DNA from: a virus
Lineage: Duplodnaviria > Heunggongvirae > Uroviricota > Caudoviricetes
Virus record (IMG/VR): IMGVR_UViG_2529292715_000006
DNA length: 33,113 nucleotides
Direction: 5' to 3' (one strand)
Below are positions 10,043 through 15,299 of the stretch, one piece after another (the first letter of the stretch is position 1; each line of letters begins with the position of its first letter). The position numbers and the translations under genes are program-made. A model generated the notes under the pieces. That model saw only the letters and a list, made by a program, of their open reading frames with translations, searched no databases and was not told the DNA's origin.

Positions 10043-10840
10043 ATGAATAATCTGATGGTCATTGATGGTATTGAAGTTCGTCGTGATGCTTATGGGCGTT
10101 ACAGCCTGAACGATCTGCACAGGGCTGCCGGTTCTCAGGATAAGCATAAGCCTGCATTCTGGCTCCGCAATGAGCAAACCGAACGTTTAATAAGCGAGTT
10201 GCAGATTTGCAACTCGGTCAATATAGAGCCAGTTAACGTTAGTCGTGGCGGAAATAACCAGGGGACGTATGTCTGCAAAGAACTGGTGTATGCCTATGCA
10301 ATGTGGATCAGCCCGTCATTCCATCTGAAGGTGATCCGTACTTTCGATATGGTAACCAGCGCACCGGAAAAATTATCCGGGCAGGCTGCTGACAAGATGC
10401 AGGCTGGCGTGATTCTGCTGGACTTTATGCGGCGGGAGTTAAACCTGTCTAACTCATCTGTGCTTGGGGCCTGTCAGAAACTCCAGGAGGCTGTTGGCTT
10501 ACCGAATCTGGCACCACGCTATGCCATTGATGCTCCTGCTGACGCGCCTGATGGCTCAAGTCGCCCTACGCTGTCGCTGAGTGCACTGCTGAAACAGTAT
10601 GGTATCCGCCTGACAGCTAATCAGGCATATCACCAGATGGCGAAGCTGGGGATCGTTGAACAACGCGAACGATACAGCCGTACCGCGATTAACAACATCA
10701 AAAAATTCTGGTCGCTGACGGCGAAAGGCTGCATGTTCGGCAAGAACATTACCAGTCCTGCAAATCCGCGCGAGACGCAGCCGCATTTCTTCGAATCCCG
10801 ATTCCCTGAGCTGTTAAAGCTGCTCGATACCGTTCATTGA
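10043..10840 (+). CDS. KilA-N domain protein (anti-repressor-like)
   Basis: N-terminal ...YSLNDLHRAAGSQDKHKPAFWLRNEQTERLISEL... is KilA-N-like; strong SD AGAGGAG upstream. Confidence 0.8.
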   Translation: MNNLMVIDGIEVRRDAYGRYSLNDLHRAAGSQDKHKPAFWLRNEQTERLISELQICNSVNIEPVNVSRGGNNQGTYVCKELVYAYAMWISPSFHLKVIRTFDMVTSAPEKLSGQAADKMQAGVILLDFMRRELNLSNSSVLGACQKLQEAVGLPNLAPRYAIDAPADAPDGSSRPTLSLSALLKQYGIRLTANQAYHQMAKLGIVEQRERYSRTAINNIKKFWSLTAKGCMFGKNITSPANPRETQPHFFESRFPELLKLLDTVH

Positions 10841-10841
10841 G

Positions 10842-11837
10842 GTGACCGTGAGAGCACTACTGACCCCTGAAATTGCCCCGCGTATGGGGATCGTATTGTT
10901 CAGACCAGGTTCAGAGCTGATGCCCCTGTTTATGCAGGGGCGTGTACTGCTGGAGCCTGAGCCGGAACGTTATTCATCTTTCGCCAGTGGTGCCGTTCCC
11001 GCGGCATCACAACCGCTGGCGGATGATCCTGCTGTTCGGGCCGTGTTCCGCAATGAGGCAGTGATCCGTCGTGCTGGTGGCGTGGAATGTCTTGAAAGCT
11101 GGCTACTTCGTGAAAAAGGCTGCCAGTGGCCTCATTCCGACTGGCACAGCGAGAACATGACCACAATGCGACACGCTCCGGGCGCAATCCGTCTGTGCTG
11201 GCACTGTGATAACCAGCTGCGCGATCAGTTCACGGAACGGCTGGAATCAATGGCAACGGATAACTGTGCCCGCTGGGTGTTGTCTGTTGTGCGTCGGGAT
11301 CTCGGTTTTGATGATAGTCACGTTGTGACAATGCCGGAACTGTGCTGGTGGCTGATTCGTAATGACCTGGCGGATGCCTTACCGGAAAGTGCAGCCCGTA
11401 AGGCACTGAGATTACCAAAGCCTGTTGTGCCGTCTGTCACCCGGGAAAGTGACCTTGTGCCTTCGGTTCCTGCCACCAGCATCATCCAAGATAAGGCAAA
11501 AAAGGTGCTGGCGCTGAAAGTGGATCCGGAGTCGCCGGAGTCTTTTATGTTACGCCCAAAACGTCGCCGCTGGGTTAATGAGAAGTACACGCGCTGGGTT
11601 AAGACACAGCCGTGTGCATGTTGTGGAAAGCCCGCTGATGATCCCCACCACCTGATAGGCCACGGTCAGGGGGGAATGGGTACAAAAGCGCATGACCTCT
11701 TTGTGTTGCCTTTGTGCAGAAAGCATCACGACGAGCTGCATGCGGATACCGTGGCATTTGAAGAGAAGTATGGCTCCCAGCTGGAGCTGATATTTCGTTT
11801 TATCGATCGTGCGCTGGCAATTGGCGTGCTGGCCTGA
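10842..11837 (+). CDS. DUF968-like protein with C-terminal Cys/His (HNH-like) motif
   Basis: C-terminal ...CACCGKPADDPHHLIGHGQGGMGTKAHDLFVLPLCRKHHDELHAD...; start codon uncertain (GTG at 10842). Confidence 0.6.
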   Translation: MTVRALLTPEIAPRMGIVLFRPGSELMPLFMQGRVLLEPEPERYSSFASGAVPAASQPLADDPAVRAVFRNEAVIRRAGGVECLESWLLREKGCQWPHSDWHSENMTTMRHAPGAIRLCWHCDNQLRDQFTERLESMATDNCARWVLSVVRRDLGFDDSHVVTMPELCWWLIRNDLADALPESAARKALRLPKPVVPSVTRESDLVPSVPATSIIQDKAKKVLALKVDPESPESFMLRPKRRRWVNEKYTRWVKTQPCACCGKPADDPHHLIGHGQGGMGTKAHDLFVLPLCRKHHDELHADTVAFEEKYGSQLELIFRFIDRALAIGVLA

Positions 11838-11854
11838 TTTGGTGGAGAAAGTTG

Positions 11855-12220
11855 ATGCGTGATATTCAGATGGTTCTTGAGCGTTGGGGAGCATGGGCGG
11901 CGAGTGATAGTTCAGGCGTTGACTATTCACCTATAGCTGCTGGGTTTAAGGGACTTCTTCCCTATACCAGCAAGAAACGCTTGGCTTGTTCGGATAGTGA
12001 TGCATTAATTATTGAAGGTTGTCTTGCTCGTCTAAAGCAAAAAAGACCTTATGAGCATTCGCTTCTTGTGGCACATTATTTATACAGAATATCCAAGCGT
12101 AAGATTGCAAAGGCGCGTGGAAAGGATGAGAAATTGATACGTATAGAAATACAGCTAGCCGAAGGATTTATTGATGGCTGCCTTTCCATGCTAGATCTAA
12201 CATTAGATTTGGACGTTTAA
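11855..12220 (+). CDS. Putative late-gene antiterminator (Q-like, phage 82 type)
   Basis: 121 aa from ATG 11855 (GGAG 7 nt upstream); position upstream of the lysis cassette; family assignment is from memory. Confidence 0.5.
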   Translation: MRDIQMVLERWGAWAASDSSGVDYSPIAAGFKGLLPYTSKKRLACSDSDALIIEGCLARLKQKRPYEHSLLVAHYLYRISKRKIAKARGKDEKLIRIEIQLAEGFIDGCLSMLDLTLDLDV

Positions 12221-12221
12221 T

Positions 12222-12246
12222 AATACGCCCCATGCAGGGGCGTATT
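12222..12246. terminator. Bidirectional hairpin between the convergent Q-like and KAP NTPase genes
   Basis: AATACGCCCC-atgca-GGGGCGTATT perfect 10-bp inverted repeat with short T/A runs on both sides. Confidence 0.6.
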
Positions 12247-12248
12247 AT

Positions 12249-13580
12249 TTACTGGATGAATGACATTTGATTAATATATTTTATCAATAACTCTCTGGGT
12301 GTAGTACTCCAAAAATTTAGGTGTTCATAATCAGTATAAACAGTGGTGAATTTTTTAAGTTCTTCATCACTTTTAGGGGCAAATCGCTCATTAAGAGTAA
12401 TACTGTCTTTAATTATTCCGAAGAATACAATAGATATTTCAGGAATTTGCGATCTTCTCTCATAAGAATAAGGTATTTCTTTTATGTTAAGCAGATCTGC
12501 TAAATGAGATATAGATTCTGCGGTAATTTCTTGTTTTAGTTTTTCCTTGTCACCAAAGCAATGTATGAAGACAGCTACGACAAAGATCTTATTTATTAAA
12601 GGATCACTGCTTTTGTACTCATCGTCGTTTAATAGTTGAAAAATGTTAAGATTGCGTGAAAAAGTTTGTGTTTCACGTAAGGATAAGTTGGTTCGTTGAA
12701 TTAAATCACGGATAAATCTACCAGATAACCTATTAATTTCATTTAATGATTTTGTCTTGTCTACAAGGTAATTCCAATATATAACAGATGTTTTACATAC
12801 GACGTGACCATTTATTAAACATGTGTCTGGAAGCGTGATGGTATATTTTATAAACTTGTCAAGATACTTTTGTGAGTTAATACTATAACCATAAATATGA
12901 TTTATCGATGCTTTTAATTGTTCTGTGTTTGTAACTAAAATAAAAAAGACATTATTGATGTCAAAAATGTGTTTTATTGTTTCAATGACATTTGTTGAAA
13001 AACTCGGCTTACATCGGTCTAATTCATCAATTATAATTACTATCTTTTGACTTTCTGAAATGCTTTCGATGCAAGATTTAAGTGAATTTATGTTTTTCTC
13101 TGATTCCATATGGTCTTCAAGCAAATTTTCAATAGTCCCATCTATTGCTGCATTGCTTGCTTTCTTCATCGCATCTTGGAATTCTTCGGAAACTTCACTA
13201 GCCTCCTGTCGTAAAAACCAACCTGCACCAGCTTTTAGTACCGTTTTTAAACCAAAGCGAATTGCAGGAAGAGATCTCTTAATGAAGTGTTGTTTTTCTT
13301 CCTCAGGTAAAATGCTGGCAATTGCAGAGGTTATGAGAAGTAATGGAGATTCTGCATGATCCCCTTTAAAGGCATCAATATAAACAACTTTAGATTCAGT
13401 TTCTTGCTCAATAATGAGATTTTTCAGTTTGATACTAAATTCTGTTTTCCCTGTTCCCCATGCGCCGTCTATTACCAGTGGTGAAATGTCTGCCTCTGGT
13501 TTTAGCAACTTGATGATATTTTCAGCGATGTTTCTGCGTTGGAACTCGTCACGTTCAGTGAAAGATAGTGTATCTAACAT
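12249..13580 (-). CDS. KAP-family P-loop NTPase (PifA-like), candidate abortive-infection/defence protein
   Basis: 443 aa; Walker A ...DGAWGTGKTEF...; Walker B ...KIVIIIDELDRC...; markedly AT-rich; opposite orientation to flanking phage genes. Confidence 0.85.
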   Translation of the reverse strand: MLDTLSFTERDEFQRRNIAENIIKLLKPEADISPLVIDGAWGTGKTEFSIKLKNLIIEQETESKVVYIDAFKGDHAESPLLLITSAIASILPEEEKQHFIKRSLPAIRFGLKTVLKAGAGWFLRQEASEVSEEFQDAMKKASNAAIDGTIENLLEDHMESEKNINSLKSCIESISESQKIVIIIDELDRCKPSFSTNVIETIKHIFDINNVFFILVTNTEQLKASINHIYGYSINSQKYLDKFIKYTITLPDTCLINGHVVCKTSVIYWNYLVDKTKSLNEINRLSGRFIRDLIQRTNLSLRETQTFSRNLNIFQLLNDDEYKSSDPLINKIFVVAVFIHCFGDKEKLKQEITAESISHLADLLNIKEIPYSYERRSQIPEISIVFFGIIKDSITLNERFAPKSDEELKKFTTVYTDYEHLNFWSTTPRELLIKYINQMSFIQ

Positions 13581-13703
13581 AATATAAACCTATTAACTCC
13601 TACAGTAAAAAACGAATAATACGACTTTGGGATTAAAAATCATTAACGCGGTCCGCAAAAATTCTTGTAATCTGTTAAGAGTGGTTACTTCGCCACACAG
13701 CTT

Positions 13704-13738
13704 AAACCCGCCGTCGAGCGGGTTTTGTCGTTTTTGTT
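13704..13738 (+). terminator. Intrinsic terminator upstream of the lysis genes (tR'-like)
   Basis: AAACCCGC-cgtcga-GCGGGTTT followed by TGTCGTTTTTGTT on the plus strand. Confidence 0.6.
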
Positions 13739-13876
13739 GCTGGGGATTCGTTGGGCCTGGCCTATCCCGCAGTTATCCATTGGTTCGGCTCTTTGACGTT
13801 TCCGCTTCTGATTTGCGGTACATGATGTTCCCTCAATTTGCACCTGCTGTATCAGCGAGGTGAGAGATAACTACAA

Positions 13877-14203
13877 ATGCCTCATAACCCAAATACCTGG
13901 TTGGAGTTGGTCCAGAGCTGGTGGCGTGGAGACACACCGCTGGGCGCAGTGATTATGTCGATTGTTATGGCTGGCTTGCGCATTGCATATTTTGGCGGTG
14001 GTGGGGGCTGGAAACGAAAAACGCTCGAGATTTTGCTCTGTGGTGCTCTGACGCTGACTTTTGCATCCGCTCTTGAGTATGTCGGATGGCCTAAATCTCT
14101 TTCTGTTGCCATTGGTGGCGGCGTTGGGCTAATCGGGGTCGATGCTATTCGTGGGGCTGCAATGAGAGTAATCGGTAATAAGTTTGGTGGCTCTAAGGAG
14201 TAA
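13877..14203 (+). CDS. Holin (three predicted transmembrane segments)
   Basis: 108 aa with hydrophobic stretches LGAVIMSIVMAGLRIAYF, TLEILLCGALTLTFASALEYVGW, LSVAIGGGVGLIGVDAI; immediately upstream of the endolysin. Confidence 0.7.
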   Translation: MPHNPNTWLELVQSWWRGDTPLGAVIMSIVMAGLRIAYFGGGGGWKRKTLEILLCGALTLTFASALEYVGWPKSLSVAIGGGVGLIGVDAIRGAAMRVIGNKFGGSKE

Positions 14204-14206
14204 TTT

Positions 14207-14683
14207 ATGCAGGTACTAAATTCCCAGCGTAAAGCTTTCCTCGATATGGTGGCATGGTCAGAAGGAACGGATAACGGGCGACAACCGACACGTAATCACG
14301 GTTATGATGTTATTGTTGGCGGCGAACTGTTTACTGATTACTCTGATCACCCTCGCAAACTTGTCACGCTAAACCCCAAACTCAAATCAACAGCCGCCGG
14401 ACGTTATCAGCTTCTTTCACGCTGGTGGGATGCCTACCGTAAGCAGCTTGCTCTGAAAGACTTCTCCCCCAAAAGCCAGGATGCTGTGGCACTGCAACAG
14501 ATTAAAGAGCGTGGCGCTTTACCGATGATTGATCGCGGTGATATTCGTCAGGCTATCGACCGTTGCAGCAATATCTGGGCGTCGTTACCCGGTGCAGGTT
14601 ATGGTCAGTATGAACATAAAATCGGTGATTTGATTGCCCGGTTTAAAGAGGCTGGTGGGGTGGTAAATGAAGCTGAGCTATAA
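14207..14683 (+). CDS. R: Endolysin, lambda R-like lytic transglycosylase
   Basis: ...NSQRKAFLDMVAWSEGTDNGRQPTRNHGYDVIVGGELFTDYSDHPRKLVTLNPKLKSTAAGRYQLLSRWWDAYRKQL... is near-identical in motif content to lambda R; AAGGAG SD. Confidence 0.9.
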   Translation: MQVLNSQRKAFLDMVAWSEGTDNGRQPTRNHGYDVIVGGELFTDYSDHPRKLVTLNPKLKSTAAGRYQLLSRWWDAYRKQLALKDFSPKSQDAVALQQIKERGALPMIDRGDIRQAIDRCSNIWASLPGAGYGQYEHKIGDLIARFKEAGGVVNEAEL

Positions 14684-15059: not shown

Positions 15060-15222
15060 AACTCCACAGCCAGTTATACCCAATCCTCTGACTTATGGGG
15101 ATAGTCTTAGTTTGAATGTAAGTCTGCTATCAGCACTGGGGCTATGTAACCGTGATAAGTCTGATCTTCGTAGGTTAGGAGAGCAAAAGTACAATCTGCA
15201 TTTGAATAATAATATTCATTAG
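14944..15222 (+). CDS. Rz1-type outer-membrane lipoprotein spanin (overlapped architecture)
   Basis: In the +1 frame of Rz: MMIVLHALCLMSLLTGCGS... (lipobox LLTGC) then Pro-rich PTMPLPTNLLAETPQPVIPNP; extends past the Rz stop. Confidence 0.6.
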   Translation: MMIVLHALCLMSLLTGCGSTRTVYVQVPTMPLPTNLLAETPQPVIPNPLTYGDSLSLNVSLLSALGLCNRDKSDLRRLGEQKYNLHLNNNIH

Positions 15223-15237
15223 GTGAAATATTATTAT

Positions 15238-15272
15238 TTGACTGTTCTAGTTATTATGCATTTAGTTACAAT
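15238..15272 (+). promoter_or_regulatory. Possible sigma70-type promoter for the membrane-protein moron
   Basis: TTGACT at 15238-15243, then weak -10 candidates (TTTAGT / TACAAT) in AT-rich DNA; low confidence. Confidence 0.3.
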
Positions 15273-15299
15273 ACTCTCACTATTAACAGTGAGGTAAAA

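What the first reader, a model, noticed from the sequence alone, without database searches (positions are those of the whole stretch)
12221..13876. KAP-family NTPase moron between the Q-like gene and the late terminator: candidate single-gene defence system
A 443-aa minus-strand ORF has a Walker A (DGAWGTGKTEF) and Walker B (IVIIIDELDRC) arrangement typical of KAP P-loop NTPases, the family that includes the F-plasmid exclusion protein PifA. It is strongly AT-rich against GC-balanced phage DNA, is oriented against all neighbouring phage genes, and sits between the Q-like gene and the tR'-like terminator in front of the holin, a well-known accessory-gene insertion site in lambdoid phages. No partner gene is visible: the only nearby ORF (13627-13863) looks non-coding. 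A prophage-encoded abortive-infection or exclusion function is the most economical hypothesis.
Basis: partly seen in the sequence, partly recalled or inferred. Interest (0 to 1): 0.8.

Follow-up and report, generated by a model that had tools for sequence, protein, structure and literature searches.

The report
Prophage KAP NTPase, candidate phage defence
A prophage carries a foreign-looking, backwards-facing gene for a compact KAP-type ATPase in a slot where related phages keep other defence-like genes, so it is very probably an anti-phage immunity gene of an already catalogued but untested family (PADLOC PDC-S20).

Summary
ORF 12249-13580 (minus strand, 443 aa, GC 0.33 against 0.52 for the window) is a KAP-family P-loop NTPase (Pfam 7e-70) with intact Walker A and B motifs and dN/dS of 0.13-0.24.

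It matches the PADLOC candidate single-gene system PDC-S20 over its full length (1.5e-176). It matches PifA and QatA only through the NTPase domain.

It fills a 1.4-kb cassette between the Q stop codon and a conserved 92-bp late-promoter/terminator element. In 80 related phage contigs this slot holds at least 14 unrelated AT-rich cassettes, nearly all on the minus strand. They include TIR, HNH, NYN, SDH-protease, PDC-S42 and PDC-M53 genes.

Homologues sit in the same slot in Salmonella, Citrobacter and Cronobacter prophages, between cI and int of 186-like prophages, inside a type I R-M operon, and beside IetAS. No partner gene is conserved.

Best reading: a single-gene, lysogen-expressed sensor-NTPase that blocks superinfecting phages. 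Defence activity is untested for this family. It is a new member of a known kind, of moderate interest.

The parts
11852..12220 (+). Antiterminator Q gene; left boundary of the cargo slot
   Evidence: Pfam Phage_antitermQ 2.3e-51; phrog_79. Homology to cargo-free or differently loaded phages ends at 12180-12196.
12219..12249 (.). Bidirectional terminator-like hairpin (13-bp stem AATAATACGCCCC / GGGGCGTATTATT, loop ATGCA) lying between the convergent Q and KAP stop codons
   Evidence: Sequence. RNA fold gives -21.5 kcal/mol on the + strand (z -5.2) and -21.4 kcal/mol on the - strand (z -6.5), with 0 of 200 shuffles as stable. Conserved in the Salmonella locus L005. Terminator function is inferred.
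12249..13580 (-). KAP-family P-loop NTPase gene (443 aa), PADLOC PDC-S20 family
   Evidence: phrog_8614, unknown function, 3e-188; dN/dS 0.13-0.24.
13443..13466 (-). Walker A motif GAWGTGKT (residues 39-46)
   Evidence: G39, W41, G42, T43, G44 and K45 are invariant in 30 homologues.
13023..13040 (-). Walker B motif VIIIDE (residues 181-186), followed by invariant LDRC
   Evidence: D185, E186, L187, D188, R189 and C190 are invariant.
13119..13247 (-). Conserved soluble insert between Walker A and B (residues 112-154). This is the position where many KAP/YobI NTPases carry transmembrane helices.
   Evidence: pLDDT 33-52 although mean pairwise identity is 59%. No transmembrane-grade hydrophobic window: maximum Kyte-Doolittle score 1.35.
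12252..12629 (-). Fast-diverging six-helix C-terminal domain (residues 318-443); candidate sensor/specificity domain
13581..13634 (-). Cassette-specific 5' region of the KAP gene, with a weak Shine-Dalgarno sequence (AGG, about 9 nt from the ATG) and a -10-like TATTAT at 13620-13615
   Evidence: The promoter is not established: promoter-like sites are not enriched over shuffles (8 found against 7.7 expected).
13635..13726 (+). Conserved 92-bp late-promoter/leader/terminator (pR'-tR'-like) element; right boundary of the slot. It includes the invariant GCGGTCCGC and GTTAAGAGTGGTTAC and the terminator hairpin at 13704-13725.
   Evidence: Shared at 88-94% identity with PhiR5_1, cdtI and SfII. It abuts Q directly in the cargo-free PhiR5_1 and L062. 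The TAnnnT -10-like hexamer and the hairpin with compensatory changes are conserved in 15 loci. Terminator scan. The promoter role is inferred from lambda biology.
13877..14203 (+). Lambda-family holin, first gene of the late operon (context)
   Evidence: Pfam Phage_holin_3_1 5.7e-25.

Best explanation
The gene is a self-contained, prophage-borne anti-phage immunity gene of the PADLOC PDC-S20 family.

Shown:
- It is an intact, purifying-selected, soluble KAP-family NTPase.
- It is carried as a 1.4-kb AT-rich cassette with its own terminator hairpin, in the transcriptionally quiet gap between the end of the early operon (Q) and the late promoter element.
- That gap is a cargo hotspot where related phages carry other defence-type genes.

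Inferred:
- It is expressed from its own weak, possibly H-NS-modulated promoter in the lysogen.
- The conserved N-terminal 320 residues form an oligomeric AAA+/STAND-like ring, as in RdrA.
- The rapidly diverging six-helix C-terminal domain recognises a protein or complex of a superinfecting phage.
- Recognition switches on NTP binding and hydrolysis. Because there is no nuclease, TIR, protease or membrane domain, the output would be the NTPase itself. Either it remodels or sequesters an essential phage assembly, or it burns ATP uncontrollably.
- The convergent orientation to Q may let read-through early transcription silence the gene during the prophage's own lytic cycle.
For: - Family and domain: Pfam KAP_NTPase 7.2e-70; PADLOC PDC-S20 1.5e-176 over the full length.
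- Motifs are invariant; dN/dS is 0.13-0.24.
- Cassette boundaries were defined against cargo-free and differently loaded phages.
- Hotspot: among the 75 IMG/VR loci where the slot could be delimited, all but one hold 0.8-2.7 kb of AT-rich cargo, nearly all minus-strand. There are at least 14 unrelated cassette types, including TIR-TM (1.9e-57), an HNH effector/PDC-M68A, PDC-S42, NYN, SDH protease and PDC-M53 in SfII.
- Homologues at 39-92% identity occur in the same Q slot in Salmonella, Citrobacter and Cronobacter. They also occur in the lysogenic cI-int interval of 186-like prophages, inside a type I R-M operon next to PDC-S14, and next to IetAS.
- The gene is rare cargo: 50 of 5426 E. coli genomes.
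- The C-terminal domain is variable and has no enzyme fold.
- Other single-gene KAP NTPases have been shown to defend: EF_KAP and three metagenomic KAPs, dependent on Walker B and the C-terminal region (PMC13552941); Reve in a P4 hotspot (PMC13586616); PifA against T7 (PMC13001434).
Against: - No experiment exists for PDC-S20 or for this protein: no paper mentions it.
- The argument rests on guilt by association plus family resemblance.
- No promoter could be identified with confidence.
- No effector domain was found, so the killing or blocking step is speculative.
- The persistent linkage to one Q family across genera (45-92% identity) could instead mean a phage-internal role.
- Two of 14 IMG/VR alleles have single-base frameshifts in homopolymer runs.
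- No isolated phage in the INPHARED collection carries a close homologue.
Confidence: 0.65

Rival explanations
1. The KAP NTPase is only the sensor/switch of a split system. It activates or regulates an effector encoded elsewhere (a host housekeeping factor or another prophage gene), as RdrA works with RdrB, QatA with QatBCD, or PifA with host membrane components.
For: No effector domain was found in the full-length or C-terminal models. The closest solved folds, RdrA and BrxC, are subunits of multi-protein systems. The KAP NTPases QatA and mad8 are parts of multi-gene systems.
Against: No gene is conserved next to it across lambdoid, 186-like, R-M-embedded and island contexts. PADLOC models it as a single-gene candidate. 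The gene moves between genera as a one-gene cassette, which a dedicated partner in trans would make difficult, unless the partner is a universally conserved host protein.
Confidence: 0.17
2. The gene serves the phage's own life cycle or competition in another way, and is not broad anti-phage immunity. Examples: modulating lysogeny or induction, late-gene timing with Q, excluding satellites or plasmids, or countering a host defence.
For: It is tightly linked to the PF06530 Q gene in four genera, down to 45% protein identity. Its other home is the lysogeny operon interval cI-int. Its phrog_8614 family is annotated 'unknown function'.
Against: Closely related Q genes occur with 13 or more other cassettes, or with none, so Q does not need it. 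Only 50 of 5426 genomes carry it. Homologues also sit in non-phage defence contexts: a type I R-M operon and beside IetAS. AT-rich, oppositely oriented, self-terminated cassettes are typical of lysogenic-conversion cargo.
Confidence: 0.1
3. It is inert or decaying hitch-hiking cargo with no current function.
For: Two of 14 IMG/VR alleles carry single-base frameshifts in homopolymers. No convincing promoter was found.
Against: dN/dS is 0.13-0.24 over dS up to 0.30. Catalytic motifs are invariant across 30 sequences at 38-92% identity to the window protein. Length is stable at about 440-470 aa among the best 150 of 269 clusters at 50% identity with E <= 1e-30. All 50 E. coli copies are full length at the DNA level, and the 40 rows listed are annotated as protein-coding genes.
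Confidence: 0.04

Closest known systems
PADLOC PDC-S20 (phage defence candidate, single gene 20; model PDLC04956)
   Same: Full-length HMM match: 1.5e-176, residues 3-442 on profile positions 4-449 of 450. All seven homologues tested from other contexts match equally well. Single-gene organisation.
   Different: None detectable; this is the family. PDC-S20 is only a computational candidate, and no paper in the searchable library mentions it.
PifA of the F plasmid (T7 exclusion; founding prokaryotic KAP NTPase)
   Same: KAP NTPase domain. Soluble, lacking transmembrane helices (stated for PifA in PMC13001434). Single gene on a mobile element that blocks a phage.
   Different: The match covers only profile positions 13-255 of 720, at 1.1e-17. 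The window protein is 443 aa and lacks PifA's long C-terminal region. PifA acts by abortive infection with membrane leakage; nothing here indicates that.
EF_KAP and three metagenomic KAP NTPases (RADS study, PLoS Biol 2026, PMC13552941)
   Same: Single-gene KAP NTPase plus a C-terminal region of unknown fold. Both parts are needed for defence, Walker B is required, and EF_KAP is not abortive. This is the nearest functional model.
   Different: EF_KAP has two transmembrane helices and a 322-aa C-terminal region, and comes from Firmicutes. The window protein is soluble with a 126-aa helical C-terminus.
Reve (single-gene KAP-domain system from a P4 satellite hotspot, NAR 2026, PMC13586616)
   Same: Single gene with ATPase/KAP domains, carried in a hotspot of a mobile element in E. 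coli, with strong protection against several phage families.
   Different: It was described as not recognised by DefenseFinder or PADLOC 2.0.0, whereas this protein is recognised as PDC-S20. It is therefore probably a different clade. The sequence was not held, so this was not tested.
RdrA of RADAR
   Different: RdrA is about 800 aa, shares 12-14% identity, and works with the RdrB deaminase. No RdrB-like neighbour is present here.
QatA (QatABCD) and Tmn (YobI-family transmembrane NTPase)
   Same: P-loop NTPases of the KAP or related clades used in defence. Tmn senses a phage protein (T2 RIIB) and raises ATP turnover.
   Different: QatA scores 35 bits against a cutoff of 600, and no qatBCD genes are present. 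No PADLOC Tmn hit and no transmembrane helices.

Membership tests
KAP family P-loop NTPase (Pfam PF07693) | Profile match above the curated gathering score across the whole domain | tested here: met
   236 bits against a cutoff of 20, E 7.2e-70, residues 15-317 on profile positions 1-292 of 293.
KAP family P-loop NTPase (Pfam PF07693) | Intact Walker A (GxxxxGK[ST]) and Walker B (hhhhDE) motifs | tested here: met
   GAWGTGKT at 39-46 and VIIIDE at 181-186, invariant in 30 homologues.
KAP family P-loop NTPase (Pfam PF07693) | Transmembrane helices associated with the NTPase domain (common in the family but not universal; PifA lacks them) | tested here: not met
   The highest 19-residue Kyte-Doolittle mean is 1.35. 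The model has no transmembrane-like helices. PMC13001434 states that PifA also lacks them, so this does not exclude membership.
PADLOC PDC-S20 candidate defence system | Full-length match to the PDC-S20 HMM | tested here: met
   PDLC04956, 1.5e-176, 586 bits, profile positions 4-449 of 450.
PADLOC PDC-S20 candidate defence system | Stand-alone gene with no conserved partner | tested here: met
   Five kinds of context share no neighbour: the lambdoid Q slot, the 186-like cI-int interval, a type I R-M operon, an IetAS island, and this window.
PADLOC PDC-S20 candidate defence system | Demonstrated protection against phage | not testable with these tools
   No paper mentions PDC-S20. Literature searches for KAP defence found only other clades.
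PifA (F-plasmid T7 exclusion) | Homology over the full PifA length, including its C-terminal region | tested here: not met
   The match is limited to profile positions 13-255 of 720. The protein is 443 aa.
QatABCD | QatA equivalog score and adjacent qatB, qatC and qatD genes | tested here: not met
   NCBIfam QatA scores 35.2 bits against a cutoff of 600. The neighbours are Q and the holin.
RADAR (RdrA/RdrB) | RdrA-type ATPase of about 800 aa paired with the adenosine deaminase RdrB | tested here: not met
Tmn / YobI transmembrane NTPase | Two transmembrane helices inserted within the P-loop domain; Tmn HMM match | tested here: not met
   No Tmn hit in PADLOC at E <= 0.01. The insert at 112-154 is hydrophilic.
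Phage moron / lysogenic-conversion cassette | Compositionally foreign, variable between otherwise homologous phages, with own transcription signals, dispensable for the phage | tested here: met
   GC 0.33 against 0.52. Present in 50 of 5426 genomes against 3967 with flank matches. Related phages have no insert or other inserts. Terminator hairpin. The cassette's own promoter is inconclusive.

The most novel reading that the evidence does not exclude
Two linked readings are not excluded.

1. PDC-S20 may be a minimal, effector-less immune module. The KAP NTPase ring itself would be the weapon (phage-triggered ATP drain, or forced remodelling or sequestration of a phage assembly), and a 126-residue hypervariable helical domain of a fold not seen in the PDB would set specificity. 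That would make it the smallest STAND-like sensor-effector known.

2. The Q-to-late-promoter gap of PF06530-Q lambdoid and SfII-like phages may be an unexploited defence hotspot. About half of the cassette families seen there have no match to any PADLOC or Pfam model: the 343-aa family, the 340+153-aa pair, the 267-aa family, the 358+170-aa pair and most of the three-gene cassette. The uniform orientation convergent with Q may provide built-in self-immunity through transcriptional interference during induction.
Probability: 0.25. Interest if true: 0.65.

Novelty: new member of a known kind. Interest (0 to 1): 0.4.

Why it matters
If the defence role is confirmed, this family (269 clusters at 50% identity with E <= 1e-30; the closest 120 homologues are mostly from Enterobacterales) would move from a PADLOC candidate to a validated single-gene system. 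It is carried by prophages of pathogens, including ETEC H10407 and Salmonella Typhimurium, which is relevant to phage-therapy host range.

Because it has no recognisable effector, it could show how a bare KAP/STAND-like NTPase stops a phage. That question is still open for PifA after decades.

The mapped Q-to-pR' slot gives a simple anchor for mining further unknown systems: a conserved Q gene on one side and a 92-bp element on the other. This is analogous to the P2/P4 hotspots.

Tried and rejected
- GiPD474, the Gifsy-1 defence protein of S. Typhimurium 4/74, looked promising because the closest homologue cluster (92% identity) is from S. Typhimurium. The paper shows it is a ParA/MinD-like ATPase (GGVGKT) in the immunity region, so it is unrelated.
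- Sequence search of the PDB with the family profile found nothing at E <= 0.01.
- Rfam on 12100-14000 gave only a chance-level hit (E 0.83). The 92-bp element is not a described RNA family.
- The Reve sequence could not be obtained: no supplements are held. Its relationship to PDC-S20 is therefore untested.
- Promoter prediction for the KAP gene was inconclusive. Consensus sites are not enriched over shuffles. The alignment of upstream regions shows only a partly conserved TATTAT and Shine-Dalgarno sequence.
- PifA, QatA, RdrA and Tmn membership were each considered and rejected (see the membership tests).
- tblastn against 50,697 phage records found no close homologue in an isolated phage. 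The only strong hit is a mislabelled Salmonella houtenae contig.
- The H-NS preprint concerns PDC-S11 and PDC-S12, not PDC-S20. H-NS silencing here is only an inference from AT-richness.
Full report
**Observation.** The window carries an ATG-initiated 443-aa ORF on the minus strand at 12249..13580.
- It lies in a trough of G+C: 0.27-0.40 across 12150-13650, against about 0.55 on the left flank and about 0.50 on the right.
- The gene has GC 0.328 and GC3 0.268. The window is 0.517, and the neighbouring DUF968, holin and endolysin genes are 0.49-0.56.
- All neighbours are on the + strand: KilA-N, DUF968/HNH, a PF06530 antiterminator Q (11852-12220), a lambda-family holin (13877-14203) and the endolysin.
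Walker A (GAWGTGKT, residues 39-46) and Walker B (VIIIDE-LDRC, 181-190) are invariant in a 30-sequence alignment whose members are 38-92% identical to the window protein.
- The small + strand ORF 13627-13863 has no family above threshold and overlaps a conserved non-coding element (see "Anatomy of the locus").

**What the protein is.**
- Pfam assigns residues 15-317 to KAP_NTPase (7.2e-70, 236 bits against a cutoff of 20).
- PADLOC-DB gives a full-length match to PDC-S20, a candidate single-gene defence family (1.5e-176, profile positions 4-449 of 450).
- The hits to PifA (1e-17, profile positions 13-255 of 720), QatA and mad8 cover only the NTPase core.
- NCBIfam QatA scores 35 bits against a cutoff of 600.
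- PHROGs places it in phrog_8614, 'unknown function'.
- Six pairwise comparisons with other alleles give dN/dS of 0.13-0.24, at dS up to 0.30. It is therefore a gene under purifying selection.
- Exhaustive HMMER over 1.84 billion representatives finds 269 clusters at E <= 1e-30. Almost all of the best 150 listed are 430-480 aa, and the match usually stops near residue 350.
- The family is therefore a compact KAP NTPase with a replaceable tail and no large fused effector domains.

**Structure.**
- The AlphaFold2 model, built with 30 sequences, has mean pLDDT 80.7 and pTM 0.76.
- Only residues 112-154 are of low confidence. This is a conserved hydrophilic insert between Walker A and B (59% mean pairwise identity), at the position where many KAP/YobI NTPases have membrane helices.
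- No transmembrane segment is predicted: the maximum Kyte-Doolittle window is 1.35.
- The profile finds no solved relative by sequence.
- This tail is the fast-evolving part. Mean pairwise identity is 21% for residues 321-443, against 54% for the KAP domain. dN/dS is 0.20-0.38 against 0.11-0.20.
- No nuclease, TIR, protease, pore or other effector fold is present.

**Anatomy of the locus.**
- The window is 99.8% identical over 11701-14300 to a prophage of ETEC H10407. That prophage is integrated beside tRNA-Thr, next to proA, and has an SfII/SfV-like architecture (lambdoid early region, contractile tail). There the gene is annotated 'KAP family NTPase'.
- Comparison with phages that have related Q genes fixes the cassette boundaries.
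  - Homology to PhiR5_1 and cdtI stops at 12180-12196, in the 3' end of Q.
  - It resumes at 13635 in a 92-bp element (13635-13726), which SfII also shares from 13636.
  - In PhiR5_1 and in IMG/VR locus L062 this element directly abuts Q, with a gap of 0-13 bp.
- Across 15 loci the element keeps several features: an invariant GCGGTCCGC palindrome, a TAnnnT -10-like hexamer, an invariant GTTAAGAGTGGTTAC, and a terminator hairpin (13704-13725) with compensatory changes.
- By analogy with lambda pR'-6S-tR', I read it as the Q-dependent late promoter, leader and terminator. This is an inference.
- The cargo is therefore inserted between Q and the late promoter, not inside the late transcript.
- Between the two convergent stop codons lies a 13-bp-stem hairpin (12219-12249). 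It folds at about -21.5 kcal/mol on either strand, with z of -5.2 and -6.5. It is a plausible bidirectional terminator that insulates Q and the KAP gene from each other.
- Upstream of the KAP ATG only 54 bp are cassette-specific. They hold a weak Shine-Dalgarno sequence and a -10-like TATTAT, but no convincing promoter.

**Is it variable cargo?** Yes.
- The KAP gene occurs in 50 of 5426 complete E. coli genomes at 95-99.8% identity. In 42 of them it is in the full Q-KAP-holin arrangement. Matches to the Q-KAP-holin query (mostly its Q and holin flanks) occur in 3967 genomes.
- I fetched 80 IMG/VR loci encoding relatives of this Q (74-100% identity) and measured the distance from Q to the 92-bp element.
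  - 14 loci carry the KAP gene.
  - One is empty.
  - Five could not be delimited.
  - The other 60 carry different inserts of 0.8-2.7 kb.
- In a representative set of 43 of these loci, every filled slot was AT-rich (GC 0.33-0.44). The main ORF was on the minus strand in all but the IS-disrupted L091 (the longer + strand ORF in L089 looks spurious).
- Clustering gives at least 14 unrelated cassette types.
- Several are recognisably defence-like:
  - a TIR protein (PADLOC TIR-TM 1.9e-57; Pfam TIR_2);
  - an HNH endonuclease related to CBASS/PDC-M68A effectors;
  - PDC-S42 plus a small membrane protein;
  - a NYN nuclease;
  - a ClpP-like SDH protease;
  - an Aga_REase-like protein;
  - in phage SfII itself, the PDC-M53 pair.
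- About half match nothing in PADLOC or Pfam.
- The slot is a cargo hotspot whose identifiable contents are immune-type genes.

**Where else the family lives.** Homologues keep the same length and the PDC-S20 match. They occur in four settings:
- The identical DUF968-Q / KAP / lysis arrangement in Salmonella (92%), Citrobacter (65%) and Cronobacter (45%) prophages with different lysis cassettes.
- Between the CI repressor and integrase of 186/P2-like prophages of E. coli, Yersinia and Serratia. There the gene is on the same strand as cI and int, so it may be co-transcribed with them in the lysogen (inference).
- Inside a type I R-M operon (hsdM-hsdS-PDC-S14-KAP-hsdR).
- In an integrase-bounded island beside IetAS.

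No neighbour is shared among these contexts, which supports a single-gene system.

**Literature.**
- No paper in the searchable library mentions PDC-S20.
- A promising lead, the Gifsy-1 protein GiPD474, turned out to be a ParA-like ATPase in the immunity region and is unrelated.
- Single-gene KAP NTPases have been shown to defend in other clades.
  - EF_KAP and three metagenomic KAPs need Walker B and the C-terminal region, and EF_KAP is non-abortive (PMC13552941).
  - Reve comes from a P4 hotspot (PMC13586616).
  - PifA and the related YobI-family Tmn provide mechanistic precedents: phage-protein sensing, raised ATP turnover and membrane effects.

**Mechanism proposed.**
- Shown: an intact soluble KAP NTPase with a variable helical tail, in a lysogen-compatible, insulated, self-contained cassette, located in defence-type neighbourhoods.
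- Inferred:
  - It is expressed in the lysogen, possibly damped by H-NS because of its AT-richness. A 2026 preprint shows that this is common for immunity genes, though not for this one.
  - It forms a ring like RdrA.
  - The C-terminal bundle binds a component of a superinfecting phage.
  - Binding licenses NTP hydrolysis. The hydrolysis either remodels or sequesters an essential phage complex, or depletes ATP.
- I slightly favour direct interference over abortive infection. There is no toxic effector domain, and the only KAP single-gene system tested for it (EF_KAP) was non-abortive. This is weakly supported.
- The uniform orientation of the cassettes, convergent with Q, suggests a secondary idea: read-through from the early operon could silence them during the prophage's own induction.

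**Rivals.**
- A trans-acting partner (0.17).
- A phage-internal role linked to Q or lysogeny (0.10).
- Inert cargo (0.04).
- Two of 14 IMG/VR alleles have single-base frameshifts, both in homopolymer runs. These could be sequencing errors or decay.

**Verdict.** The gene is an unvalidated member of an already catalogued candidate family (PADLOC PDC-S20), and RefSeq already annotates it as a KAP family NTPase. It belongs to a known kind, single-gene KAP NTPase defence, so novelty is modest. The more useful by-products are the precisely delimited Q-to-late-promoter cargo hotspot with many unknown cassettes, and the fact that this compact KAP has no recognisable effector.

Noticed in passing
window 15150-15900 (ORF 15300-15854, + strand): A second AT-rich island (GC 0.30-0.39) holds a 184-aa ORF between Rz/Rz1 and the HNH/terminase genes. 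It has no Pfam or PADLOC hit, matches phrog_6169 (unknown function, 8.7e-74), and has a sub-threshold SLATT_1 hit. A 98.9% identical ORF is in Salmonella phage 118970_sal3. It lies upstream of the packaging module, where Tai-type defence genes lie in phi80 (PMC11364771). It is possibly another moron or defence gene.
   Followed up: partly
window 12221-13634 slot; loci L019-L098, L002, L003: The gap between the PF06530 Q gene and the 92-bp late-promoter element is a cargo hotspot. At least 14 unrelated AT-rich cassettes occur there, nearly all on the minus strand. About half have no PADLOC or Pfam match, for example L080 (343 aa), L078 (340 aa) with L034 (153 aa, membrane), L095 (267 aa), L083 (358+170 aa) and most of the three-gene cassette of L045.
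   Followed up: partly
window 13635-13726: A conserved 92-bp element has an invariant GCGGTCCGC palindrome (a candidate Q-binding site) and an invariant GTTAAGAGTGGTTAC, and ends in a terminator with compensatory substitutions. It matches no Rfam family.
   Followed up: partly
window 10043-10840: The KilA-N domain protein has a weak, local PADLOC hit to PDC-S22 (8.8e-7, residues 66-104 only). It probably reflects the shared KilA-N domain and not a defence role.
   Followed up: no
L099 7108-9344; L100 259-3708: A PDC-S20 homologue is embedded in a type I R-M operon directly after a PDC-S14 (DUF4357) gene. Another lies in an island with IetA/IetS. Both are possible examples of co-localised or cooperating systems.
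   Followed up: partly
L019 (window-equivalent 12942) and L022 (window-equivalent 12754): Two IMG/VR copies of the KAP gene carry single-base indels, in an A6 run and a T4 run, that break the frame. These are either sequencing errors or natural inactivation of the gene.
   Followed up: partly
L005 9062-11428: In the Salmonella locus with the 92%-identical KAP gene, the prophage remnant also carries an LRR+NEL (SspH-type E3 ligase effector) gene two genes from Q. Virulence cargo and candidate defence cargo therefore sit side by side.
   Followed up: no
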